Below are positions 4,600 to 36,643 of a DNA stretch of 46,873 nt, piece by piece; positions within the stretch are counted from its first letter, which is position 1, and every line of letters begins with the position of its first letter. The position numbers and the translations under genes were made by a program. A model generated the notes under the pieces. That model was not told the DNA's origin and ran no database searches. It saw nothing but the letters and a program-made list of their open reading frames with translations. The stretch is from Chiloscyllium plagiosum. Lineage: Eukaryota. The stretch is from positions 90,118,837-90,165,709 of the forward strand of contig NC_057718.1 of NCBI RefSeq assembly GCF_004010195.1, written 5' to 3'.

Positions 4600-4789
4600 A
4601 GAACGTGAGGACTGCAGATGCTGGAGATTAGAGCTGAAAATGTGTTGCTGGAAAAGCGCAGCAGGTCAGACAGCATTCAAGGAACAGGAGAATTGACGTT
4701 TCGGGCATAAGCCCTTCTTCAGGAAGGGCTTATGCCCGACACGTCGATTCTCCTGTTCCTTGGATGCTGCCTGACCTGCTGCGCTTTTC
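4600..4789 (-). mobile_element. Fold-back Penelope-like element terminus (PLE-A)
   Basis: Inverted arms ~4648-4716 / ~4723-4792; 15-bp direct repeat cagtggtatttaagg at 4585-4599 and 4790-4804. Confidence 0.8.
4695..4722 (-). ncRNA. Minimal hammerhead ribozyme motif
   Basis: Minus strand reads CTGAAGA-A-GGGC-TTAT-GCCC-GAAA-CG-TC: complete core boxes, stem II and a GUC triplet. Confidence 0.7.
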
Positions 4790-4807
4790 CAGTGGTATTT
4801 AAGGCCA

Positions 4808-4912
4808 GGGTTCTTGTGGCAGAGTGGTATCTGTGAACCAGGAGGCTTGAATTTGCAGCTGCTCCAGAAATGTGTAATAACATTTCTGAACAGATTGATT
4901 GAAAAACATCTA
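4808..4912 (+). mobile_element. Short tRNA-like SINE relic (similar copy at 17472-17587)
   Basis: gtggcagagtggta A-box-like start; shares ctgctccaga...tctgaacagattg with 17472-17587. Confidence 0.5.
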
Positions 4913-5534
4913 AGGTCAGCTGGGAACATTGAGAAGATGTGTGAGAGCACTTATAACAGCCAGCCTGGCTTTACAAGGTCAGTCTTGGTTGATTCGATAG
5001 GTTAAGTGTTAAGAACAACAAAGAGTTTTTGCAGTGATTTGGGAGGGGGAGTTGGATTTTATCACAACAAACTCATCAGGAAGCTATAGGAATTACGTTG
5101 GTTGCTGCTTTACACCCTGCCAGATTTTAATTTGCATTGGCTTCTGGAGACTGAATATAAATGGCACACCAGCCGTCAAGAGTAACTCATTTGGTCTAAA
5201 CGTAAAACATATCCTCTTTTTGTGTGCCTTGAGTTAGTTGGTGCCTGTACACATAAGTAACTCGGAGGGGTACAAAGTTCTTCTCCTGGAAATAGAGCAT
5301 CCTGTGGGTGGCTAGGTGGGTTAACCCTGCTGCTTCACAGCACCAGGGACCTGAGTTGGATTCTAGTTTGGGGGACTTTCTGTATCATGTTTGCGTGTTC
5401 TTTGTGTGGGTTTCCTCTGGGCACTGTAGATTCCTCCCCCAGTCCAAAGACGTGCAGGTTAGGTGGTTTGGCCATGCTAAATTGCCCCGTAGGGTCCAGG
5501 GATGTGCATGCTAAGTGAGTTAGCCAGGGGAAAT

Positions 5535-5655
5535 CAACTAGGCGAAAGTGAGGACTGATGAAGGGCTCCTGCCCGAAAAGTCGATTGTTTTTCTGCTCCT
5601 CGGATGCTGCCTGACCTGTTGTGCATTTCCAGCACCACTCTAATCTTGACACTAT
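5535..5655 (+). mobile_element. PLE-A terminus with hammerhead-like motif at 5555-5582
   Basis: CTGATGA-A-GGGC-TCCT-GCCC-GAAA-AGTC; TSD ccaggggaaat at 5524-5534 and 5656-5666. Confidence 0.8.
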
Positions 5656-5693
5656 CCAGGGGAAATGCAAGGATGGGGTGGGTCTGGGTGGGA

Positions 5694-5847
5694 TAGAATA
5701 TAGAACGTTACAGCGCAGTACAGGCCCTTTGGCCCTCGATGGTTTCACAGGTCAGCGCAACAATCTAAAGCCAACCTAATCTACACTATTCCATTATAAT
5801 CCTTATGTTCATCCAATGACCATTTAATGTTGGCGAGCCCACTATTG
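5694..5847 (-). mobile_element. CR1 3' tip
   Basis: Reverse (TTCTA)n tail and acagcgcagtacaggccc, also seen at 17851 and 28280. Confidence 0.8.
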
Positions 5848-6287
5848 ATGCTGTTTCGGAGAGGTATTGCAGACTCGATGGTCTACATGGTAATCAATGT
5901 AGTGATTCTATTTGCTGGAATTGCCCTGTGATGCACCCCATTTTGGCTCATTGAAGCTGTTTGTTGGCTTCTAGTCTATCCTCTTGTATCTCTCCCCACC
6001 TCAGGATAACCCCTGTGTTTGAGAAAGCCATGTTATGGATGCCCAATGAAGCAGAAGATGTGGCACACGATAAAAGGACAATATACCTGGTGATTTTCTC
6101 AGAAACCAAACTTTAAATAAGTTCATGACTGGCTTTTGACGGCAGTGAGGTTTCTCTGCAAGCAGTGAAACATTGTCAGCACATGCATCATCCTATCAGT
6201 AGGCCACAGTGACGCCTACTTTTTGTTGGCGTCTTCATTTGATGTTGTGTTCATCTGGGTTAAGGATGTTGGCAGTGGGAAATGTAA

Positions 6288-6746
6288 GGCGAGAGTGTGG
6301 TGCTAGAAAAACACAGCAGGCCAGGCAGCGTCTGAGGAGTAGGAGAGTCAACGTTTCCGGCATGAGTCCTTCATCAGAAATGAGGCTTGTGGGCCAAGGG
6401 GGCTGAGAGATAAATGGGAGGGGTGTGGGACTGGGGTGGAGGTAGCTGAGATTGTGATAGGTGGATGGAGGTGGGGGAGAAAGTGATAGGTCAGAGAGGA
6501 GGGTGGACCAGATGGTGGGAAAGANNNNNNNNNNNNNNNNNNNNNNNNNNNNNNNNNNNNNNNNNNNNNNNNNNNNNNNNNNNNNNNNTCTCAGCCCCCT
6601 TGGCCCACAAGCCTCATTCCTGATGAAGGGCTTCTGCCGGAAACGTTGACTCTCCTGCTCCTCGGACGCTGCCTGGCCTGCTGTGCTTTTCTAGCATCAC
6701 ACTCTTCGACTCTGACCTCCAGCATCTGCAGTCCTCACTTTCTCCT
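6288..6746 (+). mobile_element. Fold-back PLE-A with an assembly gap near the apex
   Basis: Arms 6290-6411 and 6589-6705 are reverse complements; TSD agtgggaaatgtaa at 6274-6287 and 6747-6760; hammerhead-like motifs on both strands (6620-6647 on +). Confidence 0.85.
6525..6588. other. Assembly gap (N run)
   Basis: Run of N. Confidence 1.
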
Positions 6747-6924
6747 AGTGGGAAATGTAATTCCTTTTCCAAGAATCACTGGAGGAAGCAGAGGCAGGTA
6801 GACCTTGAACTGCCCTCTCTGCCCCAATGGCAGGCTGCATTGGGTGCACATTGTCAAAATCCATGATGGGACTCCTCACTCACAGGGCTTAAGCATGTCC
6901 AACCATGCTGCAGACCTAATCTGG

Positions 6925-7035
6925 ATTAGAGGAATACAGTCATTGAACAGTGGTTTGGTTGGGATGCTCTTCGGAGGGTTGGTGTGGACTTGATGGGACG
7001 ATTGGCCTGTTTTCGCACAGTAAGGGTTCTATGAT
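6925..7035 (+). mobile_element. HE1/V-SINE 3' fragment
   Basis: gggatgctcttcggagggttggtgtggacttgatggg...ggttctatga. Confidence 0.75.
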
Positions 7036-7351
7036 CTTTGAGCTGGATCAAAGCATATGTTGTCATACTCAGTGCCAGAGCAAAAGTTGATCTGCACCAG
7101 TACCAGATCCCATTAGAAAACAATAGTTAGGAAGAATCCCCTTGTGTTTTCCAATCCATATCTTCAAGGTCTCAACTGAGACACGCAGAGTCTGAAGGCA
7201 ACATTTGGAGACACACATCATGATGTACTTATTCCCATGTACAGGTTTATTCCAATGTTATTGTTGCATCAACACACACATTTTTGAAGTTTGCTATGAA
7301 GCAAGAGAGGTCGATGTGTTCAGGCCAGATGCATATACAAAAGGAAGATTC

Positions 7352-7740
7352 CGTTATGGACCAGACCAGATCCCCTCAAAATATTTTAAGAAGGTATCCT
7401 AGACCCTAACCTTTTCTTATTTCAAAGGTAAATGTGAAGTGTCTGTTCCAGATGCAATGTGACTGGTCAAACAACTCGACGTTAAGCAAAACACAATTTA
7501 TTTAAACACTGTAGTTAAAATACAACCAAAGAAAGAGGAATTTAGAATAACTTGACTCTATTGGAAAACTTAACCAAATAATACATACAGTAACTATTAC
7601 TAATTAACTGTTCCAATATGGTAATCCCATAAACACGTCCCTTGACAATAAAGGAAAATTCAGACACAGATTCTGACATGCGGTTCTTCAATCCAGGAGG
7701 AAAATAGCATCCAGAGAAAATTCAGATAGAATAGCAGCTC
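7352..7740 (-). mobile_element. Possible truncated LTR (LTR-retrotransposon relic)
   Basis: Starts cgttatggacc (degenerate TG start); AATAAA on the minus strand near 7497-7502; recognised by resemblance only. Confidence 0.4.
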
Positions 7741-7742
7741 CG

Positions 7743-8056
7743 ATGTCCTCCCACGGTCCAAACAGATGCGGGTCAGGTGGATTGGCCATGCTCAAATGCC
7801 TGCTGCTAGGGTCAGGGGGATGGTCTGGGTGGGATCCTCTTCAGAAGGTCCGTGTGGACCCGATGGCCTATTTCCACACTGTTGGGATTCCCCAGAGGGA
7901 AAGGTCTGGGTCTGGATGTGCACACTTGGTGCATTAGTCCTGGGAAGTGCAGGGTTTCGGGGATAGAGTAGCGGGGCAGAGTCTGGGTGGGATGCTTTTT
8001 GGAGGGGCAGTGTGGACCCAATGGGCTGAATGGCCTGCTTCCACAATGTAGGGATT
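7743..8056 (+). mobile_element. Two tandem 3' halves of HE1/V-SINE
   Basis: Both ~7743-7890 and ~7895-8056 end in the SINE tail (gtgtggaccc...tttccacact/cttccacaat...gggatt). Confidence 0.8.
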
Positions 8057-8165
8057 GTATTGGTGTGTATGGCAAACCCTCACCCTGCCCATCCTACACC
8101 TGTTTAACAGTTGGCATGAGATCCAATTTGCACGCCTTGATCTGTCTGCTGATCAACCACCGCCA

Positions 8166-8481
8166 GGGTGGCACGGTGGCTCAGTGGTTAGCACTGCTGC
8201 CTCACAGCGCCAGGGACCTGGGTTTAATTCCAGCTTTGGGCGAGTGTCTGTGGAATTTGCACGTTCTCCCTGTGTCTGCGTGGGTTTCCTCCGGGTGCTC
8301 CGGTTTCCTCCCACAATCCAAAGATGTGTAGATCAAGTGAATTGGCCAGGCTAAATTGCCCATAGTGTTGGGGTGGATATAGAGTAGGGGAATGGGTCTG
8401 GGTGGGTTACTCTTCGGAGGGTCGGTGTGGACTTGTTGGGCTGAAGGGCCTGTTTCCATACTGTAGGTAATCTAATCTAGT
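8166..8481 (+). mobile_element. Full-length HE1/V-SINE
   Basis: A-box tggctcagtgg 8177-8187; B-box-like ggtttaattcc 8221-8231; (TAATC)n tail. Confidence 0.92.
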
Positions 8482-8519
8482 CTGTTTGCCTTCAGTTCTC
8501 CCAGTTTGAAATTAAGAAG

Positions 8520-8657
8520 TAAAATATGCTTTAGAGAAGAGAGATGCTTAACGGCCAGATACAAACAGGAGGGTGAGGAGTTCTGCTGAGTCAGGGAGCC
8601 GGCTCTGAGCTAGCTGGATCAGTGTCACGTACTATGCATGTGTAAATAAATAGTGAT
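8520..8657 (+). mobile_element. Possible LTR 3' fragment
   Basis: gtactatgcatgtgtaaataaa polyA-signal context resembles LTR R/U5 regions; weak evidence. Confidence 0.3.
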
Positions 8658-8982
8658 GAATCATAGAATCCCTACAGTGTGGAAATCAGCCCTTTGGCCC
8701 AAAACATCCACACTGACCCATTCCCCTACCAGTCACCCAACTAGATAAAATATGCACCTAACCTATACATCCCTGAACACTATGTATAATTTAGCATGAC
8801 CAATTCATTTAACTTGTACATCTTTGGACTGTGGGAGGAAACCAATGCACCCTGAGGAAACCAACACAGACACAGGGACAACGTGCAAATTCCACACAGA
8901 CAGTTGTCCATGGCTGGAATCGAACCCAGGACCGTGGCGCTGTGAGGCAGCAGTGCTAACCACTGAGCCACCGTGCTGCCCC
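8658..8982 (-). mobile_element. Full-length HE1/V-SINE
   Basis: ggaatcgaacc (reverse B-box) and aaccactgagccaccgtgctgccc (reverse head). Confidence 0.92.
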
Positions 8983-10362
8983 AAGGGGTTATTTCAAAGC
9001 CTCTTTTATGAGATGCAATCCTGGTGCGACATTATTGGTGCAAACTCAAATGCAGCACTTAGAGGCTTTTCTCTTTTAGAAAAAAACCTTCATTTAAAAA
9101 TAGGCCCGAGTGAAGGAAGATTTTGGCAGGTCCTTTATTTTGACTGAGGCCTTTGGCAGCTCCAGCTGTGCCCTGTTGGCCGCTTTCGGCCTGACAAATA
9201 CAGAAACGTGGCCAAACGTTTATTCATTTCAATCCCTGCGAAGAAGGCTTAGGATTCAGCAAAACTAGGCTGTGCAACTGTACTGTGGCACGGTTAAGAC
9301 TGAACATCGTTTATCGGGAGAAGCAGTTAAAGAATCCGGAGCCGAAGCTGTGAAATGGTGTTAAGATACAAATCAGCCGTGATGTATTTCAGTGATAGAG
9401 CAATCCAGAGGGGCCGAATGGTCTCCCTCTGTTCCTATGAACTGATATAGCGAGAAAGAATGAAAGACAAGTGGTATCGGGAGCAGGTGAAAATGTCTTT
9501 TTATCTTTACACCGTATTTACAAAGTGAATCAGTTCTGCAGGTGGCCTTCCAAACCACATGTTTCCTTCCAGGTTTTCCACTTCTATGTTCATTCCCAAA
9601 AACAAAATGATCACTGGAATTGCCTGGTCTTGTTTCCTCCCCTTGGGAACGCTGCAAACTCTCAACTTCTTCAGTGGATTGAAGTGAGTCTCAGATAAAG
9701 AACTTCAGGATGGGGATCTATGCGTTGTGAAAAAGTAATCGTGACTGTGTTTGGGTCAGGTACAGCGCAAGACAGGTGCATTGTCCCATTCCTGGCTTTA
9801 AAACAATCTCCTGTGAGGAGGTGCCCGAGTGAAACATGAAACCTTGCCTTGGAGTCATAGCGATTTTACCACATAGAAAGAGGCCCTTCAGCCCAACTTG
9901 TCCATGCCAGTCATCTGACCGAATCCCATAATCCAGCTCTTGGCCCATAGCTCTGTATGCTGTGCTCATCTAAATAGGTCTCAAATATTGCTAGGCGTCC
10001 TACCTCTACCACCCTTTCTTCAGTGTGTTCTAGATACCCACAAACTCTGTGTGAAAAAACGTTTCCTCAAAATCCCTTATAAATCCTTGCCCCTTACCTT
10101 AAATCCATACACCTTGGTTATTGGACCCTCTACCAAGAGTAAAAGCATCTCCGATCTATCCTGTACATGCCTCTTGTAATTTTCTGCACCTTAATCCGAT
10201 TCACCCCCCAGCCGTTTCTTGCTGAATCACTCCAGCCCCAGACAACATCCTGGTGAGTCTCCTCTGTAGCCTCTCTTGTGCAACCACATCCTTCCTACAG
10301 TGTGATAACAGAACTGCACACAGTACTCCAACTGTGGCCTGTTGAATGTTATATACTGAAAT

Positions 10363-10680
10363 CATCATAGAATCCCTACAGTTCGGAAGCAGGCCATTTG
10401 GCCCATCAAATCCACACCGATCCTCCGAAAAGCCATCCCACCCTGACCCACCCCCTATGGCTAATCCACATAGTCTGCACATCCCTGAATGCTACGGGCA
10501 ATTTCCCAATGTCAATCCACCTGACCTGCACACCTTTGGACTGTGGGAGGAAACCGGAGCACCCGGAGGAAACCCACGCAGACATGGGGAGAATGTGCAA
10601 ACTCCACACCTACAGTCACCTGAGGGTGGAATCGAACCTGGGTCCCTGGCGCTGTGAGGCAACAGTTAAAACCACTAAAC
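10363..10680 (-). mobile_element. HE1/V-SINE
   Basis: gggaggaaaccggagcacccggaggaaaccc; ggaatcgaacctgggtccctggcgctgtgaggc. Confidence 0.9.
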
Positions 10681-10682
10681 AA

Positions 10683-10822
10683 TTAACTTTTCGAGTCCAG
10701 TGATTCTCCTTCAGAATTGAATCTGAAGAAGGGCCATTAGACATGAAATGTTGACTCTGTTTTCTCTTCACAGATGCTGCCAGACCTGCTGAGTTTCTCC
10801 AGCATTCTCTGTTTTTTTGTTT
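10683..10822 (+). mobile_element. Second Penelope-like family terminus (PLE-B), short fold-back, degenerate hammerhead motif
   Basis: CTGAAGA-agggccattagacat-GAAAtgtt with inverted counterpart aacttttcgagtccagtgattctccttcag; cagatgctgccagacctgctgagtttctccagca. Confidence 0.65.
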
Positions 10823-10838
10823 GCTGACATTATATACA

Positions 10839-11054
10839 TTCAAGATTAGAGTGTGTTGCTGGAAAAGCACAGAAGGTCAGGCAGCCTCTGAGGAGCAGGG
10901 AAATCAACTTTTCGGGCAAAAGCCCTTCATCAGGAACGTGACCGAACGTCGATTTTCCTGCTCCTCAGATGCTGCCTGTCACGCTGTGCTTTTCCAGCAC
11001 CACACTCTCATCTTGACTCTAATCTCCAGCATCCGCAGTGCCCACCTCCGCCCA
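10839..11054 (+). mobile_element. Fold-back PLE-A
   Basis: TSD acattatataca at 10827-10838 and 11055-11066; minus-strand CTGATGA-A-GGGC-TTTT-GCCC-GAAA at 10906-10933. Confidence 0.85.
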
Positions 11055-13160: not shown

Positions 13161-13302
13161 ATGTGAGACTGCAAGTGGAAAATGTTGTACAAGTTGATGG
13201 GTACGAAGGGTTAATCCATGAGTGTGCTAGGGGCCCTGAGTGAAGCAGTTGGTAGTTTAAAGACACATAAGTCTGGTACAGTCTGCTGATGGAGAGCAAA
13301 TG

Positions 13303-13405
13303 AAAGCAAAATACTGCAGATGCTGGAAATCTGAAACAAGCACAGAGAGTGCTGGAGGAGAGGGGAAAAACAGAGTTAATGTTTCAGGTCAGTATGACTC
13401 TTCAT
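13303..13405 (-). mobile_element. PLE-B terminus fragment
   Basis: aaagcaaaatactgcagatgctggaaatctgaaac...cagagttaatgtttcaggtcagtatgactcttca. Confidence 0.6.
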
Positions 13406-13467
13406 GATGTGCTTTCACTATATCTTGTTAGTAATAGTTAATTAACCCCAAGAGTTGCCCACTGGAA

Positions 13468-14007: not shown

Positions 14008-14497
14008 AGGAGCAGTGCGGTGGCTCAGTGGTTAGCACTGCTGCCACATAGCCCCAGGGACCTGGGTTCGATTCCAGCCTCAGGTGACTGTCTGTGTGGA
14101 GTTTACACATTCTTCCCATGTCTGTATGGGTTTGCTCAGGTTCTCTCCCAGAGTCCAAAGATGCACAGGTTAGATGGATTAGCAATGTTAAGTTGCTCAT
14201 AGAATCCAGCGATGTGCAGGCTAGGTGGAATAGCAGGATTGAAGTGTGTGGTGCTGGAAATGCACAGTAGGTCAGGCAGTATGTGAGCAGCGGGAGAATC
14301 AATGTTTCAGGCATAAGCTCTTTTCCAGCATCACACTCTCTCGACTCTGATCTCCAGCATCTGCAGTCCTCACCTTCTCCTATGGAATAACAGGGAAACT
14401 ACAGTGATGGAGTCGGCCTGGGTGGGATACTCTTCAGAGGGTCAATGTGAACTCAATGGGCTGAATGGCCTGCTTTCACACTGTAGAGATTCTATAA
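14008..14497 (+). mobile_element. HE1/V-SINE with nested PLE-A (14238-14382)
   Basis: B-box ggttcgattcc 14065-14075; insert flanked by tggaata(g/a)cagg at 14226-14237 and 14383-14394. Confidence 0.88.
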
Positions 14498-14629
14498 TGT
14501 GAGACCGTTATACGAGGTGATGGATATGAAGAGTTAATCCATTTATTTGTGGTCCATCCTTCACCACAGACGACTGAAGTCCCTTGAGCTAACACAGGAA
14601 GGAGGATTAGTGACAGTACTATGAAAGAT

Positions 14630-14816
14630 TAGTGGTGCTGGAAAAGCACAGCAGGTCAGGCAGCATGAGTGAGTCCCTCATTCCTGATGAAGGACTTTTG
14701 CCCGAACCATTGATTTTCCAGCTCCTAGGATGCTGCCTGACCTGCTGTGCTTTTCCAGCACCACTCTAATCTTATCTCTAGTCTCCAGCATCTTCAGTCT
14801 TCGCTTTCTCCTCCGT
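14630..14816 (+). mobile_element. Fold-back PLE-A
   Basis: TSD gtact(a/g)tgaaagat at 14616-14629 and 14817-14830; degenerate CTGATGA...GAA motif from 14684. Confidence 0.8.
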
Positions 14817-14883
14817 GTACTGTGAAAGATGAGGGAGGTGCCACATAAATCCAAGTTCTGAGTGAAAATTGATGTAGAACTCT

Positions 14884-20930: not shown

Positions 20931-21263
20931 TAGGATAGGATGAATAGACAAGGTCTTTTCCCTGGGGTAGGGGAGTCCAAAACTAGAGGGCATAGGTTTA
21001 AGGTGAGAGGGGAAAGATGTAAAAGGGACCTAAGGGGCACCTTTTTCACGCAGAGGGTGGTGCGTGTATGAAATGAGCTGCCAGAGGAAGTGGTGGAGGC
21101 TGGTACAATTATAGCATTTAAAAGGCATCTGGATGGGTATATGTATAGGAAGGGTACAGAGGGATATGGGCCGGGTGCTGGCAAATGGGACTAGATTCAT
21201 TTAGGGTATCTGGTCGGCATGGACGAGCTGGACCGAAGAGTCTGTTTCCATGCTGTGACTCTA
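20931..21263 (+). mobile_element. CR1 (HER1-like) 3' fragment
   Basis: Closely similar to 1800-2132. Confidence 0.92.
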
Positions 21264-25207: not shown

Positions 25208-25752
25208 CTGGGCTCAATGGTTAGCACTGCACCCTCACAGTGTGGAAAGTGAGGACTGCAGATGCTGGAGATCAGAGTCGCGAGTGTGGTGCTGGAAAAG
25301 CGCAGCAGATCAAGCAGCATCTGAGGAGCAGGAGAATCGACGTTTCGGACATGAGCCCTTCATCAGCATTCCTCGGATGCTGCCTGACCTGCTGTGATTT
25401 TCCAGCACCACACTCTCGACTGCTACCTCATAGCGCCAGGGACCCGGGTTCGATTCCAGACTCAGACAACTGTCTGTGTGGAATTTACACATTCTCCCCA
25501 TGTCTGTGTGGGTTTCCTCTGGGTGCTCTGGTTTCCTCCCACAGTCCGAAGATGTGCAGGTTAGGTGGATTGGCCATGCTAAATTGTCCATTGTGTCCAG
25601 GGATGTGCAGGCTAGTTGGGTTAGCCATGGGAAATGCAAGCTTACAGGGATAGGGTAGGGAGGGATGTGGGTCTGGGTGGGATGCTGTTCAGAGGGTCAG
25701 TGTGGACCCATTGGGCCAAATGGCCTGCTTTTTGGGATTCTATGATTCTATG
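25208..25752 (+). mobile_element. HE1/V-SINE with fold-back PLE-A inserted in the tRNA head (~25243-25418)
   Basis: Duplicated actgc..cctca.ag.g flanks the insert; B-box ggttcgattcc follows. Confidence 0.88.
25339..25366 (-). ncRNA. Minimal hammerhead ribozyme motif
   Basis: Minus strand reads CTGATGA-A-GGGC-TCAT-GTCC-GAAA-CG-TC (one G-U pair in stem II). Confidence 0.65.
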
Positions 25753-25822: not shown

Positions 25823-26153
25823 AGGCAAAAGTGAGGGCTGCAGATGCTGGAAATCAGAGTCTTGATTAGAGTGTTGCTGGAAAAGCACAGCAGGTCAGGC
25901 AGCATCTGAGGAGCAGGAAAATCGACATTTCGGACAAAAGCCCTTCATCAAGAATGAAGGCAGGGAGCCTCTGGAATGGGGAGATAAATGGGAGGGCAGG
26001 GGTGGGGCTGGAGAGAAGGCAGCAAAGAGTACAATAGGTGGATGGGGGTGGGGATGAAGGTGCAGGGCAGAGGAGATGACCTGGCGGTTGCAGTGAGAGA
26101 TAGACTCACTGAAACCCTTGTAGAGAGAGGAGGAGAACTTCTTCAAGGTAGGT
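25823..26153 (-). mobile_element. Longer PLE-A fragment: terminus plus internal sequence
   Basis: Same terminus as other PLE-A copies; G-rich internal part shared with 6405-6524; core mutated to TTGATGA. Confidence 0.75.
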
Positions 26154-26919: not shown

Positions 26920-28005
26920 TAGAGTCATAAAGACGTACAGTATGGAAACAGACCCTTCGGTCCAACTCGTTCATGCCGACCAGATATCCTAACCTAATCC
27001 AGTCCCATTGCCAGCATTTGGCCCATATCCCTCTAAACTCTTCCTATTCATGTACCCATCCAGATGCTTTTTAAATGTTGTAATTTTACCAGCCTCCACC
27101 ACTTCCTCTGGCAGCTCATTCCATACACACACCACCCTCTGCGTGAAAAAGTTGCCCTTTAGGTCCCTTTTAAATCTTTCCTCACTCACGTTAACCCTAT
27201 GCCCTATAGTTTTGGACTCCCTTACCCTGGGGCAAAGACCTTGGCTCTTCACTCTATCCATGATTTTGTAGACCTCTGTGAGGTTACCCTTCAACCTCCA
27301 ATGTTCCACGGAAAATAGCCCCAGCCTATTCAGCCTCTCCCTGTAGCTCGAATGCTCCAGTCCAGGCGACATCCTTGTAAATCTTTTTTGAACCCTTTCA
27401 AATTTCACAACATCCTTCTTATAGCAGGGAGACCAGAATTGAACGCAATATTCCAAAAGTGGCCTAACCAATGTTGTGTATAGCTTCAACATGACCTCCC
27501 AATTCCTATACTCCATGCAATGACCAATAAACTCGAAAGTGTGAGTGCTGGAACGACACAGCAGGTTAGGCAGCATCCGAGAGGCAGGAGAATCGATGCT
27601 TTGAGCATAAGCCCTTTATCAGGATCCCGATAAACCCTTCATCATGATGATGGGCATATGCCCAAAATGTTGATTCCCCTGCTCCTCGGATGCAGCCTGA
27701 CCTGCTGTGCTTTTCCAGTGCCACTTTAATCTCCAGACTCTGATTTCCAGAATCTGCAGTCCTCACTTTCTCCGTTTTCTTCACTATCCAGTCGGCTTGC
27801 GACTCCACTTTCAAGGAATTGTGAACCTGCACCCTTAGGTCTCCTTGCTTGGCAATGCTCCCCAGGACCTTACCATTAAGTGTCTAAATCCTGCCCTGAT
27901 TTGCCTTACCAAAATGCAACATCTCACATTTATCTAAATTAATCTCCATCTGCCACTCCTCAGCCCATCGGCCCGTCTGATCAAGGTCCCGTTGTACTCT
28001 TGAGT
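26920..28005 (-). mobile_element. CR1 (HER1-like) 3' kilobase with nested fold-back PLE-A (27532-27773)
   Basis: ORF 26989-27576 LYTTLVRPLLEYCVQFWSP...FFTQRVVCVWNELP; continues after the insert. Confidence 0.92.
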
Positions 28006-28034
28006 TGTGTATAAACTATTGGATGCAAATCCAT

Positions 28035-28415
28035 TGATGGTGCCATGGTCATGTCAATGGACCAGCACTCTAGGGGACATGGGTTCACATGCCCAGCTGG
28101 CAAAGTTTAAATTCAATTAATTTATCATTCTGGAATTGCAAATTAGTTGTAGTAATGGTGACCATAAGACTGTCATCGATAGCTGTACAACACATCTGGT
28201 TTCCTAATGCCCTAAAGAAAGGAAACTGACGTCCTGACTTGGTCTGGTCTCCATGTGGCTCCAGATCCACAGCGATGGGTAGAACATTACAGCGCAGTAC
28301 AGGCCCTTCAGGGGGTTAACTCTTCACTATCCAGAAGGCTACTTAATTCAAGGGCAATTAGTGAAGGGCAACAAATGCTGGCCTTCCTATTGACACCCAC
28401 ATCCCAGGAAAGAAT
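28035..28415 (+). mobile_element. SINE-B with a ~29-bp antisense CR1 tip (28280-28308)
   Basis: tggtctggtctccatgtggctccagatccacagcgatg; tail gggcaacaaatgctggcc. Confidence 0.75.
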
Positions 28416-29227
28416 ATTTTACAGCACATAGTTGTAACAGTCAGTGGACACTATTGCTGTGGATATATTTCAACTTCAAAGTTGCAAAGAGAGAAACAGG
28501 CACTTCTATTGTCAAATATAGAGACAGGAAGCAGGGAAAACACTATTCTGCATCCTGCCCAGGGAGCTTAGTGCTCTAATTGAATTGGAGTCGACAACCC
28601 TTTGTTCTCTCAACCCACTTAATCTAGTGCTATGGGAATGTTATGAAACATTAATTAAGAATAGCATTGGCTGTAGATATCTATGATATCGTGTGCTTTT
28701 TAGAAAGAACACTTTAAATAAGAAACAATGCTGGCTACAGCAGCAAAAGTGTTTCATTTGTAAAGAACACAAGAAACAAAGTTTTGGGAAAAGTAGGCCA
28801 CGGGCATAATATTTTCTTCACAAAGTTCCCTTAAAATATTCCAGAGGAATCTGTGTTTTCCGGTGTAGAGATAGAGAATGGTGTGGCATTGGAATAGTTA
28901 ATATCTGCTTAGTTTGATCTTATCTGCAATCAGGGTATGTTTGACTGGTTTCATTAGTCTTAGGTTATGTTGACATACAGTTGCTGACATATTGAATGCT
29001 TTTATTTGGACTCAATATTCTGACTGTAAGCTAAATGGGTGCTCATTCTTTGCACTTTTGCAAATTACTGCGTATGACAGAATGAATCTGGCAGGTTTAC
29101 TTTTATCTTGTTGCTGTGCTGTTATAATGACAGTCAATTGGGAAGCAGTGATACTCCTGCTGTACTAGGCCCAGATCCCTACTCAAGTGTGGATTCCTGC
29201 CAGCCTCAGAATGTCCTGCACAGCCAT

Positions 29228-30185
29228 CTCAGGAAATGGAGTGGAGGGAATGTCCCTGTCTGCATCAATGGTGCTAAGGTGGAAATGGTGGAGAGCGTCA
29301 AGTTCCTGGGCATGATGGTCACCAACAATCTGTCCTGGTCCACCTGTGTTGATGTGATGGTCAAGAAAGTAGAACATCATCCCTACTTCCTCAGGAGGCT
29401 AAGGAAAGCCACCTATGTGGATGCATCGCAGCTTGGAATGGCAACTACTCTTCCTAAGACTGCAAGAAATTGCAGAGAATATAGTGAACACAGTCCAGTC
29501 CATCACACAAACCAGCCTTCCATCCATCGACTCCATCTATATTCTCATTGTCTCGGGAAAGCAACCAAATAATCAAAACCCCTCCCATCCAATTTATAAT
29601 CTCTTCCACCCTCTTCCAAGACATAAAAGTTTGAATACGCCTACAAATAGATTCAAGAGCAGCTTCTTCCCTGCTGTTGTCAGACTTTGGAATGGACCTC
29701 TCAAATGTTGATTCTGATCTCTCTCTCTCTCTCTCTTTCACACACACACTCTCTTCTCTCTCTTTCTCTCTCTATTCTCTCTCTCTCTCCCTCCCCCTCC
29801 CTTCCTCTCTCTCTCTCCATCCCCCTCCCTTCCTCTCTCTCTCTTTCTCTCTCTCTCTCTTTCTCTGTCTCTCTCTCTCTCTGTCTCACTCTCTCTGTGG
29901 CTGTAACACTGTATCTTGCACTCTATCCTCATTCCAGATGAAGAGCTTATACTTGAAAGTTAGGAGTGTTAACTCTCCTGCTCCTCAGATGCTGCCTGAC
30001 CTGCTGTGCTTTTCCAGCACCACACTTCACGACTCTGTTCTCCAGCATCTGCAGTCCTCACTTTCTCCCTCTATTCTGTTACCCTGATGGACTTTGTATG
30101 GTGTATGGCATGCAAAACAGCGCTCTTCACTGTGTCTCAGTGCATGTGGCAACAATAAATCAATCAAGCTATCAATCAATCTATC
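29228..30185 (+). mobile_element. Rex1/Babar-clade LINE 3' fragment with (CT)n tract and nested PLE-A (~29929-30067)
   Basis: INGAKVEMVESVKFLGMMVTNNLSWS...YFLRRLRK; TNRFKSSFFPAVVRLWN; tail aataaatcaatcaa. Confidence 0.8.
29717..29897. repeat. (CT)n polypyrimidine microsatellite
   Basis: Directly visible. Confidence 0.95.
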
Positions 30186-30804
30186 TCTCTTGGCTTTTGG
30201 TCTCACTGTTCAAGCGCAAAATGTTTCTGATCACTTAACCCCTGGATTCCTTGAAGCTGTCGAGAGGTTCCATTTGCGAAGTGGTGGAACAGGCATGAGA
30301 GTCTAATGTTTGCTTCAAATAACCTGCCGTGACCCTGCCCCTTGACACTGAAATGGCCCATCTTCTTTGATGGAGAAAACTTAATAATATTAGATGTCTC
30401 CAAAAATAGAAAGTGTGCTCTTGATAATCTTGGAAAAGGAGAAGGACCTTACGTTTGTAAGAGAACTCCCCGGCATCCTCTGGGTATAACAGTTTCATCT
30501 TAAGCCTCGACATGACCTTCCCAATTGGCACCTTGTGGAGTCATTTCATTAACTTCCTTTGAGGTTGGCAGCTTAACTTTTACATTAATTCCTGACAAAC
30601 AATGCAGCGATTACTGGGAATCTCGTTGCAGTGTGGAATTCATTACTTTCAGTGACAGTGACCTTGTGAAAACAGAATGCCAGTCAATCTCTTCAATTTA
30701 CTACGTGGCAATCCATTAATATTAAAATTATTTTGTGTATCACTGAAAGTAATTAAACATGTTCATTGCAGTGCATCCAACGAACAGTGAATCCTTAAAA
30801 CAAC

Positions 30805-31685
30805 TCAGGAAATCAGGGTAGACCACTCGGCCCTCGACCCTTTTCCGCCATTCAGTAAGATGATGAAAGATGTGATTGTGTCTTCAATCCACTTTCCCGC
30901 GTATTTCCCAAAAGCCTTGACTCTCTTGTCAATCTGACGAACTTGGCTTTGAAGATATTCAATGACGCAGACCCCCCTGTTGCTTGTTTGGGGCCGAATG
31001 GCCTTACTTCCCCTCCTATGTCTTATGGTCTTATGGTCTTATAATAATAATCCTCAGAGAGAAGACATTCTTCAGCCTGTTCTCCCAGGTGGCATGGTGG
31101 CTCAGTGGTAGGCACTGCTGCCTCTCAGCACCAACGACGTGGGTTCAATTCCACACTCAGCTGAGTGTCTGTTTAGAGTTTCCCCCTGTTCTCCTTGTGT
31201 CTGTGTGGGTTTCCTCCTACAGTCCAAAGATGTGCAGGTCAGGTGAATTGGCTAAGTTAACTTTTCGATAGTGTCCAGGGATGTGTAGTTAGGTGGGTTT
31301 ACCATGGGAAATATAGGGTTGGGGATAGGGTGAGGGAATGGGTCTGTGTGGGATACTCTTCAGAGGGTCAATGCAGACTCAGTGGGCTGAATGGCCACAT
31401 TATGCACTGTAGGGGGTTCTATGATTCTAGTTTGACTTTCATCCATGAGGGATGGGAAGCATCCTGTCAACTTCCAACTTGTCAAGTCTCCTTGGAATCC
31501 TGAAATATTTCAATAAGATAATTCTTTTCAACTTGAATGAATGTTGGTTAACCAGTTGTTCCTTTCCTCATAAGACAACCCCTTCAGCCCAGGAATCAAC
31601 CTGGTGAAACTTCTCCGAGTCATGTCTAAGGCATGTATGCCCCTCCTTAAATAAGGACACCAAAACTGTACTGAGTGCTCCAGTA
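30805..31685 (-). mobile_element. Old CR1 fragment split by a + CR1 tip (~30985-31042) and a V-SINE
   Basis: ccattcagtaagatg...; ccaaaactgtactgagtgctccag. Confidence 0.65.
31088..31428 (+). mobile_element. HE1/V-SINE
   Basis: ggtggctcagtgg; ggttcaattcc; tail ttctatgattcta. Confidence 0.88.
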
Positions 31686-31689
31686 CTTA

Positions 31690-32232
31690 GGGGAGCTTAG
31701 TGGTATTGTCACCAGACTGTTAATCCAGAGACCTCGGTAAATGTTCTCTCGAAACACAAACGGGAATTGTTGGAGAAACTCAGCAGGTCTGGGGAGAGAA
31801 ATCAGTCAATGTTTTGAGTCCAGTGACCCTTCAGAACGCAGTGTTTGATGTTCTGGGGACCTAGGTTGAATCCTGTCACGGCAGGTGGTGGAATTTGAAT
31901 TCAATGAAAATCTGGAATTAAGAATCTAATGATGATCATGAATCCATTATCAGTGGTAAAAACCATCTGGTTCACTCATCCTTTATGGAAGAAAATCTGC
32001 CAGTCCTTACCCAGTCTGATCTCCCTATGACTCCAGACCAATAGCAATATGATTAGATTAGATTAGATTACTTACAGTGTGGAAACACTCATCCTTTATG
32101 GAAGAAAATCTGCCAGTCCTTACCCAGTCTGATCTCCCTATGACTCCAGACCAATAGCAATATGGTTGACTCTTAACTGTCCTCTGTCCTCCAGCCAGCA
32201 TTGCCCACATCCCATGAGTGAATAAAGAAAAA
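31690..32232 (+). mobile_element. SINE-B containing a PLE-B piece (31751-31836) and a 79-bp duplication around a V-SINE tip
   Basis: Collinear with 13468-13776 outside the inserts. Confidence 0.85.
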
Positions 32233-32439
32233 GGTGTTGTTTCATCATTGTGCTGTATCATTATAGTAAGATTTCCCTATATTTATACACCATTCTAATG
32301 GCCATAGAACCATTCCATTGGGTCTAGATTGCACTATAGAGTGAAACATATTGGGGCTAATATAGAATAATCAAGCACATGTTGAACTTTCTGAATAGTT
32401 GCCTGGTCCGAAGTGTTGACAAGGGATAAACAGTAAATC

Positions 32440-33938
32440 CTGTCCTGCCAGAGAATTAAACAAGGTAAAATAACCGACTTGGAATAGAAATCCAAACCTG
32501 GGTGTGAGAAATCTGAAATCACTGGGGAATGGATGCTACTCGTTGTAGAGTGCTGGGGAACGCATTGGGTAGTGTTCTAGTATATAAATCATGTCAGATT
32601 AGTATGAAGTCTCAGCAAATAAATAGGAAAGCAAATAAAATGTTGCTGTGTATTATGAGGAGAATTGAATATAAAAATAGTGAAGTTATGCTTCAGTTAT
32701 ACAGAGGGTTGGTGTGACAATGTAGCGAGTGTGGTCCTGGAAAAGCACAGCAGTTCAGGTACCATACAAGGAGCAGGAGAATCGATATTTCGGGCATAAG
32801 CCTTTCATCAGGAAAAAATCCTGCTCCTTGGATGCTGCCTGACCTGCTGTGCTTTTCCGGCAACACACCCTCGACTTTGATCTCCAGCATCTGCAGTCCT
32901 CACTTTCTCCTTATGCACAGTTTCGGTCTCCTTATTTAACAGAAGGATGTATGTGTGTTGGAAGCTGTTCAGACAAGCTTTACCAGACTAATACCTGGAA
33001 TGAGTGGGTTGTCTTAAGAGGACATGATAGCTCAGCTGGGCTTCTATCCACAGATTGTGTATCCGTTCAGCCAAAGGTCACTGGATTTGAAACGTCTATT
33101 TTCAAGAGTCTAATGATGACTATGAATCCATTGTCAGTGCTAAACACCATCTGATTCACCCATTATTGGAAGGAACTCTGCAATCCACTGGAGTTTAGAA
33201 TCATAAGAGGTGATTTGACTGAAGAATACAAGGTCCAGAGGAAGTTTGACAGGGTAACTGTGGAAAGGATGTTTGCTTTTCTGGGAGAAATCAGAAGATA
33301 ATGTCAATTTTTAAAAAATAAAGGATCACCCATTTTGGAATGAAATTACAAGATTTTTTCTCACAGGGTCATGAGCATTTGGAATTTAGTGGTGGGAGCA
33401 GAATCCTTGATTAATTTTAAGTTAAGTGATAGTTAGATTGTTGGTAAGAAAAGTGGTATAGGTTGGCACCAGTCTCAATGGGCTGAAGGGCCTGACGTGA
33501 TATATGACTATGACTCATCTGGGATAGGTGGGAAAATGGAGTACAGAGGAACCTCGATTATCCGAACGATCCGGGCACGAAGTATTTTGTTCGGATAATC
33601 GAATGTTAGGCTAATCGAATGCTGGACAACACAGTTTGGCCAAGCATTGGGACCTTCGGATCTTGTTCAGATAATCCGAAATTCGGACAATCGAATGCCG
33701 GATAATCGAGGCTCCGCTGTAGTCAGATTGGTCCTAGTCTTATTGAATTTGATTGGATTTATGCTGTCTTTTGTCGGGGTAAATTTGAAGCAGGTTGGGC
33801 CTATAGTTTGGAGTTTAGGAAACAAGAGACGATCTTATGGAAATATATAAGATTCTGGGGGGGGGGGGGGATGTAGCAAGACAGAGTGGATGTGTCCTCA
33901 GAATTCACAACTAGGAGGATAGCTTCAAAATAAGAATT
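32440..33938 (+). mobile_element. Old CR1 fragments hosting PLE-A (~32725-32910), a SINE-B piece (~33095-33185) and a MITE
   Basis: RKANKML..IMRRIEYKNSEVMLQLYRGLV; minus-strand CTGATGA...GCCC-GAAA near 32783-32811. Confidence 0.75.
33544..33719. mobile_element. Tigger/pogo-like MITE (Tc1/mariner superfamily)
   Basis: 21-bp TIRs CAGAGGAACCTCGATTATCCG / CGGATAATCGAGGCTCCGCTG (19/21 match); TA at 33542-33543 and 33720-33721. Confidence 0.9.
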
Positions 33939-34438
33939 NNNNNNNNNNNNNNNNNNNNNNNNNNNNNNNNNNNNNNNNNNNNNNNNNNNNNNNNNNNNNN
34001 NNNNNNNNNNNNNNNNNNNNNNNNNNNNNNNNNNNNNNNNNNNNNNNNNNNNNNNNNNNNNNNNNNNNNNNNNNNNNNNNNNNNNNNNNNNNNNNNNNNN
34101 NNNNNNNNNNNNNNNNNNNNNNNNNNNNNNNNNNNNNNNNNNNNNNNNNNNNNNNNNNNNNNNNNNNNNNNNNNNNNNNNNNNNNNNNNNNNNNNNNNNN
34201 NNNNNNNNNNNNNNNNNNNNNNNNNNNNNNNNNNNNNNNNNNNNNNNNNNNNNNNNNNNNNNNNNNNNNNNNNNNNNNNNNNNNNNNNNNNNNNNNNNNN
34301 NNNNNNNNNNNNNNNNNNNNNNNNNNNNNNNNNNNNNNNNNNNNNNNNNNNNNNNNNNNNNNNNNNNNNNNNNNNNNNNNNNNNNNNNNNNNNNNNNNNN
34401 NNNNNNNNNNNNNNNNNNNNNNNNNNNNNNNNNNNNNN
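33939..34438. other. Assembly gap (N run)
   Basis: Run of N abutting the minisatellite. Confidence 1.
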
Positions 34439-35750
34439 ATGCAGTGAGGGTCCAGGGTTATAGTGCAGTGAGGGTCCAGGTTTATAATGCAGCGAGGGAC
34501 CAGGTGTATAGTGCAGCGAGGGACCAGGTTCATAATGCAGTGTGGGTCCAGGTTTATAATGCAGTGAGGGTCCAGGTTTATAATGCAGTGAGGGTCCAGG
34601 TTTATAATGCAGTGAATGTCCAGGTTTATAATGCAATGAGAGTCCAGGTTTATCATGCAGCGACGGTCCAGGTTTATAATGCAGCGAGAGTCCGGGTTTA
34701 TAATGCAGTGAGGGTCCAAGTTTATAATGCAGAGGGTGTCCAGGTTTATAATGCAGTGAGGGTCCGGGTGTGTAATGCATTGAGAGTCCAGGTTTATAAT
34801 GCAGTGAGGATCCGGGTGTGTAATGTATTGTGAGTCCAGGTTTATAATGCAGTGTGGGTCCAGGTTGATAATGCAGCGTGGGTCCAGATTTATTATGCAG
34901 TGAGGGTCCAGGTTTATAATGCAGTGAGGGTCCAGGTTTATAATGCAGTGAGAGTCCAGGTTTATAATGCATTGAGGGTCCAGGTATATAATGCAGTCAG
35001 GGTCCAGGTTTATAATGCAGTGAGGGTCCGGGTGTATAATGCAGTGTGGGTCCGGGTGTATAATGCAGTGTGGGTCCGGGTGTATAATGCAGTGAGGGTC
35101 CGGGTTTATAATGTAGCACGTGTCCAGTTTTATAATGCAGCGAGGGTCCGAGTTTATAATGCAGTGAGGGATCAGGTTTATAATGCTGTGAGGGACTAGG
35201 TTTATAATGCAGTGTGAGGCCAGGTGTGTAATGCAGTGAAGGTCCAGGTTTATGATGCAGCAAGAGACCAGGTTTATAATGCAGCGAGTGTCCAGGTTTA
35301 TGATGCAGCAAGAGACCAGGTTTATAATGCAGTGAGGGTCCGGGTGTATAATGCAGTGAGGGTCCGGGTTTATAATGCAGTGAGGGTCCAGGTGTATAAT
35401 GCAGTGTGGGTCCAGGTTTATAATGCAGTGAGGGTCCGGGTGTATAATGCAGTGTGGGTCCAGGTTTATAATTCAGCGAGTGTCCAGGTTTATAATTCAG
35501 CGAGGATCCGGGTTTATAATGCAGTGAGGGTCCGGGTTTATAATGCAGTGTGAGTCCAGGAGTATAATGCAGTGTGGGACCAGGTTTATAATGCATCGAG
35601 GGTCCAGGTTTATAATGCAGCAAGGGTCTGGTTTTATAATGCAGCAAGGGACCAGGTATATAAGGCAGTGAGGGATCAGGTTTATAATGCTGTGAGGGAC
35701 CAGGTTTATAATGCAGCGAGGGTCCAGGTTTATAATGCAGCGAGGGTCCA
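34439..35750. repeat. 24-bp minisatellite (gtccaggtttataatgcagtgagg)n, about 54 visible units
   Basis: Direct tandem periodicity; 8-aa periodicity in the ORF track. Confidence 0.97.
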
Positions 35751-36084
35751 GTTGCTGGTTGTACTCTGCCTGTGACAAACAACCAAAGAGTGTGCTGTTT
35801 GATCTGATCCATGACATGCTTGTGCAAAAAGCCCATGTACCAGACAATGCACTGGCACTGAGTGTTGCTCAGGTTTGTGTGAAAGGCAGATTATGGCTTT
35901 GGACTGAAGGTAGCTTCCTGTCATTGGGAATTTGGATTGGAGTTTTGCCAAATGCTGAGCTGACTGCTGCCCCCTGCACATGTGCAGATGGTGCCGGTGA
36001 TGTCACATGGCTGCTACGGAGCCTTCCTTACCACATTGTGTTTGCACATGTAATGAGAACCACGCCACCATCACATACATTTTA

Positions 36085-36643
36085 ACATGAGGAATGTTTG
36101 AGGACTCTGGATCTATACTCGATGGGGTTTAGAAAGATGGGGGTGTGGAATCTAATTGAAGCATGCAGAATACTGAATGGCCTGGACAGAGTAGATGATG
36201 GGAAGATGTTTCCATTAGTAAGAGAGACTAGGACCTGAGGGTTGAGAATGTGGTGCTAAAAAAGCGCAGCCGGTCAGGCAGCAACCGAGGAGCAGGTGAG
36301 CCGACGTTTCGAGCATAAGCTCTTGACTCTGATCTCACTTTCTCCCAGTTGATTAGGACCCAAGGGCACAGCTTTAGTGTAAAGGGAAGACCTTTTAGAA
36401 TAGACATAAAGAGAAACTTCTTCTGCCAGACAGTGGTGAATCTATGGAATTCATTGCCACAGAAGGCCAGGTCATTGAGTATATTTAAGACAGAGAGAGA
36501 TAGGTTCTTGAGTATCAAGGGGATCAAGGGTTACGGGGAGAAAGCAGGAGAATGGGGTTGAGAAACTTATCAGCCATGATTGAATGGGGGAGCAGGCTCA
36601 ATGGGCTGAATGGCCTAATTTCTGCTCCTGTGTCTTATGGTCT
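36085..36643 (+). mobile_element. CR1 3' fragment with nested PLE-A (36242-36350)
   Basis: Duplicated ga.taggacc..aggg at 36226-36241 and 36351-36366; NFFCQTVVNLWNSLP. Confidence 0.88.

What the first reader, a model, noticed from the sequence alone, without database searches (positions are those of the whole stretch)
4600..36350. Family of tiny fold-back retroelements carrying a minimal hammerhead ribozyme (PLE-A)
Seen: about 12 insertions of 110-460 bp (at 4600, 5535, 6288, 10839, 14238, 14630, 25243, 25823, 27532, 29929, 32725, 36242) share one terminus, mostly as head-to-head inverted arms. Near the fold apex lies CTGA(T/A)GA-A-GGGC-N4-GCCC-GAAA-CG-T(C/T), best preserved at 4695-4722 (-) and 25339-25366 (-). 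Established: these are the hammerhead core boxes, and minimal type I hammerheads with a palindromic near-absent stem III that act as dimers are known from Penelope-like element pLTRs. Inference: these are very abundant non-coding PLE termini, possibly a non-autonomous self-cleaving mobile family, that scatter ribozyme motifs on both strands at roughly one per 4 kb. Stem I pairing is short (about 2 bp), so activity is unproven.
Basis: partly seen in the sequence, partly recalled or inferred. Interest (0 to 1): 0.8.

Follow-up and report, generated by a model that had tools for sequence, protein, structure and literature searches.

The report
Twin-primed Penelope retrotransposon ends with hammerheads
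These hairpin-shaped repeats are short end-pieces of a very abundant Penelope-like jumping gene in a genome whose closest protein matches are from bamboo sharks, not a separate ribozyme family; their junctions suggest that both cut DNA strands likely copy one RNA up to its probably capped start, which would explain the long-puzzling inverted ends of these elements.

Summary
The 12 insertions and the minimal hammerhead motif are real. They are ends of an autonomous Neptune-type Penelope-like element (PLE): elsewhere in the genome the same terminus follows reverse transcriptase, zinc finger and GIY-YIG. A blind 1.34-Mb sample gives one insertion per 7.8 kb (about 440,000, extrapolated), 27% of them fold-back. 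Hammerheads, inverted ends and the 30-40 bp tail are published PLE features. A separate non-autonomous family is not supported: all 47 sampled junctions differ. Dispersed ribozymes decay (18% of arms intact), and the best window copy is predicted trapped in its hairpin.

Not found in my literature searches: 5' ends pile up at one base, the A of an Initiator-like motif 4 nt before the hammerhead, with excess G in front (cap signature). Fold-backs pair one long with one short arm (35 of 47) and carry ~14-16 bp target duplications. The three commonest junctions counted fit two run-off cDNAs annealing end to end. This supports twin priming on one capped RNA (inferred, about 60%). The scan noted PLE hammerheads in other genomes before, but no look-alike of this sequence.

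The parts
4597..4792 (.). Fold-back insertion: long arm (minus, 4597-4725, runs to the far tail end), short arm (plus, 4715-4792); young CTGAAGA subfamily
4695..4722 (-). Minimal hammerhead core (C3 at 4722, predicted cut after 4695); core and stem II intact, stem I closing pair lost; predicted buried in a -132 kcal/mol hairpin
4585..4599 (+). 15-bp target-site duplication, repeated at 4790-4804
5531..5656 (+). Short arm 5555-5653 starting at C3, with an inverted tail remnant 5531-5557
6288..6748 (.). Fold-back whose arms reach into the 3' UTR; assembly gap in the middle; 14-bp target duplication
10839..11052 (.). Fold-back, short arm minus and long arm plus; 12-bp target duplication
14243..14379 (.). 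Fold-back with truncated arms; 12-bp target duplication with one mismatch
14626..14813 (.). Fold-back, long arm plus (C3 at 14684, damaged core); 14-bp target duplication with one mismatch
25243..25421 (.). Fold-back inserted in another dispersed repeat; long arm minus, short arm plus
25339..25366 (-). Minimal hammerhead core, boxes intact, stem I 5' strand replaced by the other arm; box 1 predicted paired in the hairpin
25823..26152 (-). Internally deleted copy: about 90 bp from the ORF start joined to the 3' UTR, hammerhead and tail
27534..27771 (.). Fold-back, both cores damaged (G12 to A)
29918..30066 (+). Single long arm, damaged core
32722..32909 (.). Fold-back, short arm minus and long arm plus
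36238..36344 (-). Short arm with a remnant of the inverted tail

Best explanation
The repeats are terminal pieces of an autonomous Penelope-like retrotransposon with RT, zinc finger and GIY-YIG, and the fold-backs likely arise when both nicked target strands prime reverse transcription at two internal sites of one probably capped RNA and run off its 5' end. Positions are counted from hammerhead C3 = +1. Steps: (1) Shown: full-length copies read hammerhead, tail, short UTR, ORF (RT, CX4CxxC, GIY-YIG), 3' UTR, hammerhead. (2) Inferred: transcription starts at the A at -3 of an Initiator-like motif, so the hammerhead lies at the very 5' end of the RNA. (3) Inferred from target duplications, and from in vitro work on the anole PLE: the endonuclease cuts both strands about 14-16 bp apart, and one strand primes at about +85-89, the other at about +124-128. 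(4) Inferred: both cDNAs run to the RNA start, often copying the cap as an extra C, and their 3' ends anneal or are ligated. The result is one short and one long head-to-head arm, and the difference between them is the 'tail'. If only one strand primes, a single arm results; a template jump gives longer copies or internally deleted ones. (5) The hammerhead was kept under selection in master lineages (inferred from covariation) but is probably dead cargo in dispersed copies; most templates were uncut RNA. Odds: PLE identity about 0.97; not a separate non-autonomous family about 0.85; twin-priming run-off model about 0.6.
For: Link to the ORF: in most of 34 RT-anchored loci the terminus lies downstream on the same strand (read by eye); natural ORFs carry YIDD, CHRRNCKTC and IIYCIRCSRCGLxYIG; Pfam RVT_1 at its cut-off and GIY-YIG below it; 73,898 RT candidates in the genome; the terminus runs on into the ORF start in full-length copies. 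Two 3' ends: 107 short and 106 long among 230 arms; fold-backs long+short 35, long+long 3, short+short 1, other 8 of 47. Target duplication of 10 bp or more in 33 of 47 fold-backs, 20 of 80 short singles and 5 of 300 mismatched controls; 14 bp or more in 26 of 30 loci with the commonest junction. 5' spike: 17,235 exact matches have a purine at -4, where parents have C or T, and the first 100 listed are nearly all unrelated upstream; loose ends peak at -3 in further runs, from three organisms in all. G at -4 10,695 against A 6,540, with background G/(G+A) 0.41 and 27 G in the first 100 rows at control position -2 (hand count). Recurrent junctions CAGG-ATT-CCTG 1,570, CAGGA-AT-TCCTG 802, CAGGAAT-S-ATTCCTG 435. 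In the first, the arm that reaches -3 is long in 14 and short in 14 of 30, as expected for repair of a central A.A mismatch between two annealed ends. Literature: both strands cut and extended, two internal RT starts, uncut RNA used (PMC11167929); extra G at capped 5' ends and twin priming with target duplications in L1 (PMC11702581).
Against: No direct transcription-start or cleavage data: the one usable raw RNA run shows both strands, 96-98% read-through into flanks and no pile-up of molecule ends. The G at -4 can be read otherwise: in the commonest junction it is the last base of the other arm, in the third junction the central pair can be the parental C, and masters with that 5' structure would template a G. 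In the blind sample the 5' ends spread over about -11 to +1, and G at -4 was 5 against A 4 (small numbers). The -2 control is inflated for A by the junction itself and by loss of one T. No intact full-length ORF was recovered (longest gap-free frame 600 aa). One junction locus (L266) clearly has arms of different subfamilies and L270 differs at N7. Clade rests on a motif, not on a tree.
Confidence: 0.65

Rival explanations
1. The insertions are PLE ends, but the second arm is made by snap-back: the first cDNA folds on its own 3' end (3-nt loop) and is copied, and the endonuclease later trims the tail from one arm.
For: The commonest junction is a perfect hairpin with a 3-nt loop. Arms of one locus share subfamily letters more often than arms of different loci (18 of 38 against 12%) and sometimes share private changes. 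Craig et al. ascribe the tail to endonuclease resolution (PMC8557442).
Against: The arm that carries the loop is the short one in 14 of 30 loci, and a copy cannot be longer than its template. Junctions with 0-1 spacer bases occur at 802 and 435 sites. Both arm ends abut the target duplication.
Confidence: 0.17
2. The fold-backs are a non-autonomous, MITE- or retrozyme-like family that is transcribed, cleaves itself and is moved as a unit by the PLE protein.
For: One junction recurs at 1,570 sites, with target duplications. Tandem two-hammerhead minis of about 375 nt period exist (L012, L015, L022, L023). Retrozymes derived from PLE termini are reported, averaging 363 bp in one cartilaginous fish (bioRxiv 2026.07.22.740005).
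Against: 47 of 47 sampled junctions differ. The recurring junction spans several loop variants and both orientations. A fold-back carries one sense ribozyme per strand, and it is predicted trapped. The mini-element junctions nearly all differ, and the one shared junction has 5 matches genome-wide.
Confidence: 0.1
3. Head-to-head repeats come from self-priming on an antisense transcript, as proposed for rotifer Penelope elements.
For: Palindromes at the inverted junction are what prompted this model (PMC3846280 Discussion). RNA covers both strands of the terminus.
Against: It does not predict the shared -3 boundary of single and fold-back copies, the G excess, or strict long+short pairing. The antisense reads run into flanks. 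The anole PLE uses sense RNA in vitro (PMC11167929).
Confidence: 0.05
4. The 5' pile-up is an RT stall or processing site at the edge of the hammerhead fold in the 3' terminal repeat, so the pieces are ordinary 5'-truncated copies and no RNA start is involved.
For: Strong 5' truncation is typical of PLEs, and coverage falls steadily toward the 5' end. Ends in the blind sample spread over about 12 nt.
Against: The peak lies just past the structure, at an Initiator-like A that is also at -3 in the second family (TCAGTT), and has a position-specific G excess. A full-length copy (L089) and a tandem mini (L015) begin at the same base with G.
Confidence: 0.2

Closest known systems
Endonuclease-containing Penelope-like elements, Neptune (or Nematis) type (Craig et al. 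2021, PMC8557442; passages read)
   Same: RT then C-terminal GIY-YIG, CX2-5CxxC linker, strong 5' truncation, inverted 5' copy, 30-40 bp tail at one end, hammerhead in the pLTR.
   Different: Extreme abundance (about 440,000 insertions, extrapolated), dominated by 90-250 bp end pieces; both arms of most fold-backs are tiny.
Minimal hammerheads of metazoan PLEs (Cervera and de la Pena 2014, PMC4209133; first two of four parts read)
   Same: Type I core, extra base between positions 9 and 10.1, G10.1-C11.1, palindromic 15.2-16.2 with no loop III, short stem I; mostly single motifs, some near pairs on opposite strands; found in fish Neptune elements.
   Different: Stem II is 4 bp, not 7-8. That paper counts about 4,000 (coelacanth) and 9,000 (Xenopus); here 42 intact arms in 1.34 Mb would scale to about 100,000 (descriptors differ). 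The parts read do not mention sharks.
Anolis Poseidon element PAc in vitro (Frangieh et al. 2024, PMC11167929; main text read, supplements searched)
   Same: Two internal RT start sites that define the tail; both target strands cut and extended; uncut RNA is the main template; no RNA ends found at the cleavage site.
   Different: Different clade; here the ORF starts about 115 nt after the cut site rather than inside the ribozyme. The text read does not derive head-to-head repeats, the RNA start or cap copying.
L1 twin priming and cap-derived extra G (PMC11702581; passages read)
   Same: Second target strand primes on the same RNA, inverted product with a 12-18 bp target duplication, extra G at full-length 5' ends.
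   Different: In L1 the second primer anneals by chance microhomology and the arms do not overlap; here both starts are fixed sites about 40 nt apart and both arms copy the same stretch.
Non-LTR retrozymes (Li et al. 2026, bioRxiv 10.64898/2026.07.22.740005; first three of five parts read; supplements closed)
   Same: Non-coding, derived from PLE termini, type I hammerhead.
   Different: Retrozymes are head-to-tail tandem units with a ribozyme in each; these are head-to-head or single.

Membership tests
Penelope-like element (EN+) | Telomerase-like RT with PLE N-terminal motifs | tested here: met
   600-aa frame with LSKGLTF, KPADKG, PKIHK and YIDD; RVT_1 E 6.6e-7; 48% identity over 453 aa to an RT+GIY-YIG protein. 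Motif names are recalled; no tree with telomerases was built.
Penelope-like element (EN+) | C-terminal GIY-YIG in the RT frame | tested here: met
   L062 and L059 hold both in one open frame; the Pfam GIY-YIG score is below its cut-off (19.9 against 22.6).
Penelope-like element (EN+) | pLTR: same terminus before and after the ORF, inverted 5' copy, 30-40 bp tail | tested here: met
   tail about 40 bp
Penelope-like element (EN+) | An intact, active full-length copy | tested here: inconclusive
   None among the top 150 RT hits listed or the 20 long frames fetched; assembly gaps interrupt many.
Neptune clade | CX2-5CxxC linker between RT and EN | tested here: met
   CHRRNCKTC / CHYRNCKTC in 3 of 3 frames examined; the motif is shared with Nematis.
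Neptune clade | RT phylogeny with named references | not tested
   No named reference sequences were held.
Minimal type I hammerhead | Core boxes, stem II, palindromic helix III | tested here: met
   42 of 230 arms intact
Minimal type I hammerhead | Stem I pairing with covariation | tested here: met
   Closing pair C-G, U-A, C-G, A-U, A-U in families A-E, paired in 67-100% of anchored copies although not demanded by the pattern; helix III ACGU or AGCU.
Minimal type I hammerhead | Rfam hammerhead model match | tested here: not met
   No hammerhead family at E<=5 in the window.
Minimal type I hammerhead | Self-cleavage | not testable with these tools
   Needs a bench assay; no RNA end pile-up in a library unsuited to show one.
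Non-LTR retrozyme | Head-to-tail tandem units each with a hammerhead | tested here: not met
   Window copies are inverted or single; no intact same-strand pair within 1 kb among 16 pairs; only query-selected minis are tandem.
MITE-like non-autonomous family | One fixed structure amplified as a unit | tested here: not met
   47 distinct junctions of 47; the recurring junction is spread over subfamilies and orientations.

The most novel reading that the evidence does not exclude
This genome holds on the order of 100,000 frozen intermediates that spell out the PLE integration cycle. A dimeric protein primes both target strands at two fixed sites on one capped RNA, both cDNAs run off at a start site 4 nt before the hammerhead, and a cap-derived C makes their ends a quasi-palindrome that anneals. 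That would explain head-to-head pLTRs and the one-sided tail in all PLEs. It would also make the short pieces 'strong-stop' DNAs, with the 31 nt from RNA start to ribozyme cut acting like a retroviral R region for the jump that rebuilds the pLTR.
Probability: 0.35. Interest if true: 0.75.

Novelty: new member of a known kind. Interest (0 to 1): 0.48.

Why it matters
As an element it is an ordinary, very successful PLE. Its value is statistical. How PLEs form head-to-head inverted ends, a one-sided tail and tandem pLTRs is described as open in the papers read (PMC2377424, PMC3846280, PMC8557442, PMC11167929), and hundreds of thousands of copies here give base-level signatures that separate the models and name exact sites (RNA start at -3, primers at about +88 and +128) for a test with the existing in vitro system. 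Second, an estimated 120,000 hairpins of 50-120 bp per arm are a large potential source of double-stranded RNA in read-through transcripts; that consequence was not tested.

Tried and rejected
Rfam: no hammerhead hit; the microRNA hits lie far below their gathering scores and reflect the hairpins. PDB sequence search with the endonuclease region: nothing relevant. No RNA holder was listed on record for the mini-element. One of the two raw RNA runs gave no laid reads. A-to-G differences in RNA were not interpretable without matched DNA. Cleavage as the cause of truncation: rejected, few 5' ends lie near +29. Splicing as the cause of the -3 boundary: rejected, upstream sequences are unrelated and parents have no AG there. 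A longer distal stem I for the 3' ribozyme: inconclusive (covariation table 4 against 3; the upstream stretch folds on itself). Co-folding two cores gave no hammerhead-shaped dimer as the lowest-energy form, which says little for a protein-assisted ribozyme. The deleted copy at 25823 as founder of a mini family: its relatives have different junctions. Literature searches without a match for the model or for a shark Neptune description: and supplements. Repbase, Dfam, most subscription papers and the bioRxiv supplements could not be seen, and the supplements of PMC4209133 were not opened, so the family may already be catalogued. Earlier scan notes: none for the full word set or the sequence; the eight shown for two words concern other genomes.
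Full report
Observation. The window is G000:C9:90118837-90165709 in a 3.56-Gb assembly. All 12 insertions are present. The hammerhead-like motif matches 10 times against 0.01 by chance. A structural descriptor gives 13 hits (5 strict) in the window plus 20 sampled stretches, and none in 20 Markov controls. Rfam has no hammerhead hit here. Below, positions are counted from C3 = +1, so the predicted cut is after +28.

Identity. Following the one window copy that extends beyond the motif led to L021, where the terminus follows frames with YIDD, a CX4CxxC motif and a GIY-YIG motif. A search with that RT piece gave 73,898 candidates, of which 150 were scored. In the 34 RT-anchored loci examined, the terminus lies downstream on the same strand in most (read by eye), and coverage falls toward the 5' end. 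L062 and L059 hold RT, zinc finger and GIY-YIG in one frame; Pfam gives RVT_1 at its cut-off and GIY-YIG below it. The young subfamily of the 4600 copy is linked to RT and endonuclease in L061. In full-length copies the terminus runs on through about 35 nt after the tail into the ORF start. The closest proteins are 90-91% identical bamboo-shark entries, so the genome is inferred to be a carpet shark's. The linker motif points to Neptune or Nematis (PMC8557442); no tree was built, and no intact full-length ORF was recovered.

Abundance. I fetched 140 ten-kb stretches at round coordinates on contigs C1-C40, blind to content. In 1,342,215 non-N bases there are 230 arms in 172 insertions, one per 7.8 kb; 47 are two-arm head-to-head fold-backs. 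Scaled up, that is roughly 440,000 insertions and 120,000 fold-backs. The window is about twice as dense.

The ribozyme. The genome holds at least five hammerhead families with different stems around the same core. Stem I was not demanded by the patterns, yet its closing pair is C-G, U-A, C-G, A-U and A-U in families A to E, paired in 67-100% of anchored copies, and helix III is ACGU or AGCU. Within this family the strongly variable non-CpG positions of the motif are N7, loop II and distal stem I. I infer selection in master lineages. Dispersed copies decay: G12 is A in 24 of 171 arms, near the level of neighbouring CpG sites; 42 of 230 arms keep core, stem II and palindrome; none of 16 same-strand pairs within 1 kb has two intact copies. 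In the 4600 fold-back stem II has predicted probability 0, and in the 25243 fold-back box 1 is predicted paired. Few 5' ends fall near +29, so most templates were uncut. This agrees with the anole PLE, where uncut RNA is the main substrate and cleavage needs protein (PMC11167929), and with the weak activity of minimal hammerheads (PMC4209133).

Not a separate mobile family. The 47 sampled junctions are all different. One junction does recur at 1,570 sites, but among 45 loci with it or with a second recurring junction there are several loop variants, and both arm orientations occur. Tandem minis with two hammerheads about 375 nt apart exist, but they were selected by my query, their junctions nearly all differ, and the one shared junction has 5 matches. 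Inverted 5' copies and the one-sided tail are published PLE traits.

How the pieces form: 3' ends and target duplications. Arms end at two sites, 107 short and 106 long of 230, about 40 bp apart. Fold-backs pair long with short in 35 of 47, long with long in 3, short with short in 1, and 8 are unclassed; independent choice would give about half mixed. Target duplications of 10 bp or more flank 33 of 47 fold-backs, 20 of 80 short singles and 5 of 300 mismatched controls; 26 of 30 commonest-junction loci have 14 bp or more, and 5 of the 12 window copies have 12-15 bp. So each target strand is joined to a terminus 3' end.

How the pieces form: 5' ends. Exact matches from -3 to +14 number 83,620: 66,385 with the parental pyrimidine at -4 and 17,235 with a purine. 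The first 100 purine rows are nearly all unrelated upstream; about 27 of the first 100 pyrimidine rows are too (hand counts, contig C1 only). Loose ends peak at -3 in a second run and, for another subfamily, in four runs from three organisms. The A at -3 is the +1 of an Initiator-like motif (consensus recalled): TCATTCC or TTATTCC here, TCAGTT in family B. The D. virilis Penelope has an internal, Initiator-type promoter in its pLTR (PMC2377424, passages and Discussion). G precedes -3 in 10,695 cases and A in 6,540, against a background of 0.41 and 27 of 100 at -2. Subtracting the three recurring junctions leaves roughly 8,700 against 4,900 (my approximation; the patterns are not identical). 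An extra G is the known mark of cap copying in L1 (PMC11702581). Against this: the blind sample shows ends spread over about -11 to +1 and only 5 G against 4 A, and a templated G from masters with an inverted 5' end is not excluded.

How the pieces form: junctions. Two cDNAs that both end at -3 explain all three junctions counted. With the extra C, the ends GAATC anneal with one central A.A mismatch (1,570 sites). Without it they overlap at AT (802). Blunt joining with one C gives the third (435), though there the C could be parental. Mismatch repair predicts that either arm keeps the -3 end, and it is the long arm in 14 and the short arm in 14 of 30; for the third junction the split is 5 and 7 of 15. 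Snap-back predicts the long arm only. Arms of a locus agree at all 11 diagnostic columns in 18 of 38 loci against 12% between loci, and L242 and L262 share private changes, as expected for one RNA; L266 is a clear exception. The in vitro work shows both strands extended from two internal sites by a predicted dimer, which supplies the needed chemistry in another clade. The earlier proposal was self-priming on antisense RNA (PMC3846280). My searches found no paper with the twin-priming account for PLEs, within the limits of the library.

RNA. In one polyA single-cell run the terminus is read on both strands, 96-98% of laid reads run on into unlike flanks, and no place has many molecule ends. This fits passive read-through; the library cannot show starts or 5'-OH ends.

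Verdict. A real feature and a new member of a known kind. The interest lies in the junction statistics, which give a specific and testable, but still inferred, model for PLE inverted ends.

Noticed in passing
window 10723-10814 (+), 31755-31832 (-), 13367-13403 (-): Decayed copies of a second, related hammerhead family (family B, stem II GGGTC..GACC, stem I AGTT/AACT); 130 BLAST hits in the sample, some of them cross-matches to the main family.
   Followed up: partly
L207, L226, L145 and other sampled loci: Three further hammerhead families (C with AGCU helix III; D and E with long stem II), 83, 16 and 28 BLAST hits in 1.34 Mb, D and E overlapping; their ORFs were not traced.
   Followed up: partly
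L012:1258-1818, L015:1312-1802, L022:1256-1766, L023: Internally deleted minis with two direct-repeat hammerheads about 375 nt apart: retrozyme-like, able in principle to form the dimer.
   Followed up: partly
window 34439-35751: Tandem array of a 24-bp unit, about 55 copies, with long open frames and no Pfam match.
   Followed up: no
window 8174-8483, 14009-14232, 25400-25742, 31095-31413, 41211-41533, 45756-46014 and others: An abundant ~350-bp dispersed repeat that I recall as the shark HE1-type SINE (name from memory); the 25243 fold-back is inserted in one copy and the 14243 fold-back splits another.
   Followed up: no
window 39044-39349 (+); 1593-2126, 20933-21256, 27008-27531, 37339-37695, 42161-42482, 43957-44479: An RT fragment (Pfam RVT_1) and LINE-like 3' fragments; the CR1-type label is recalled, not tested.
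   Followed up: no
upstream of the hammerhead, about -18 to -6, in L087 and similar copies: A small hairpin (AGGC-N5-GCCT) in several subfamilies just before the Initiator-like motif; role unknown.
   Followed up: partly
window 10768-10998, 25253-25446: Fold-backs score weakly against microRNA precursor models, far below the gathering scores; whether they yield small RNAs was not tested.
   Followed up: no
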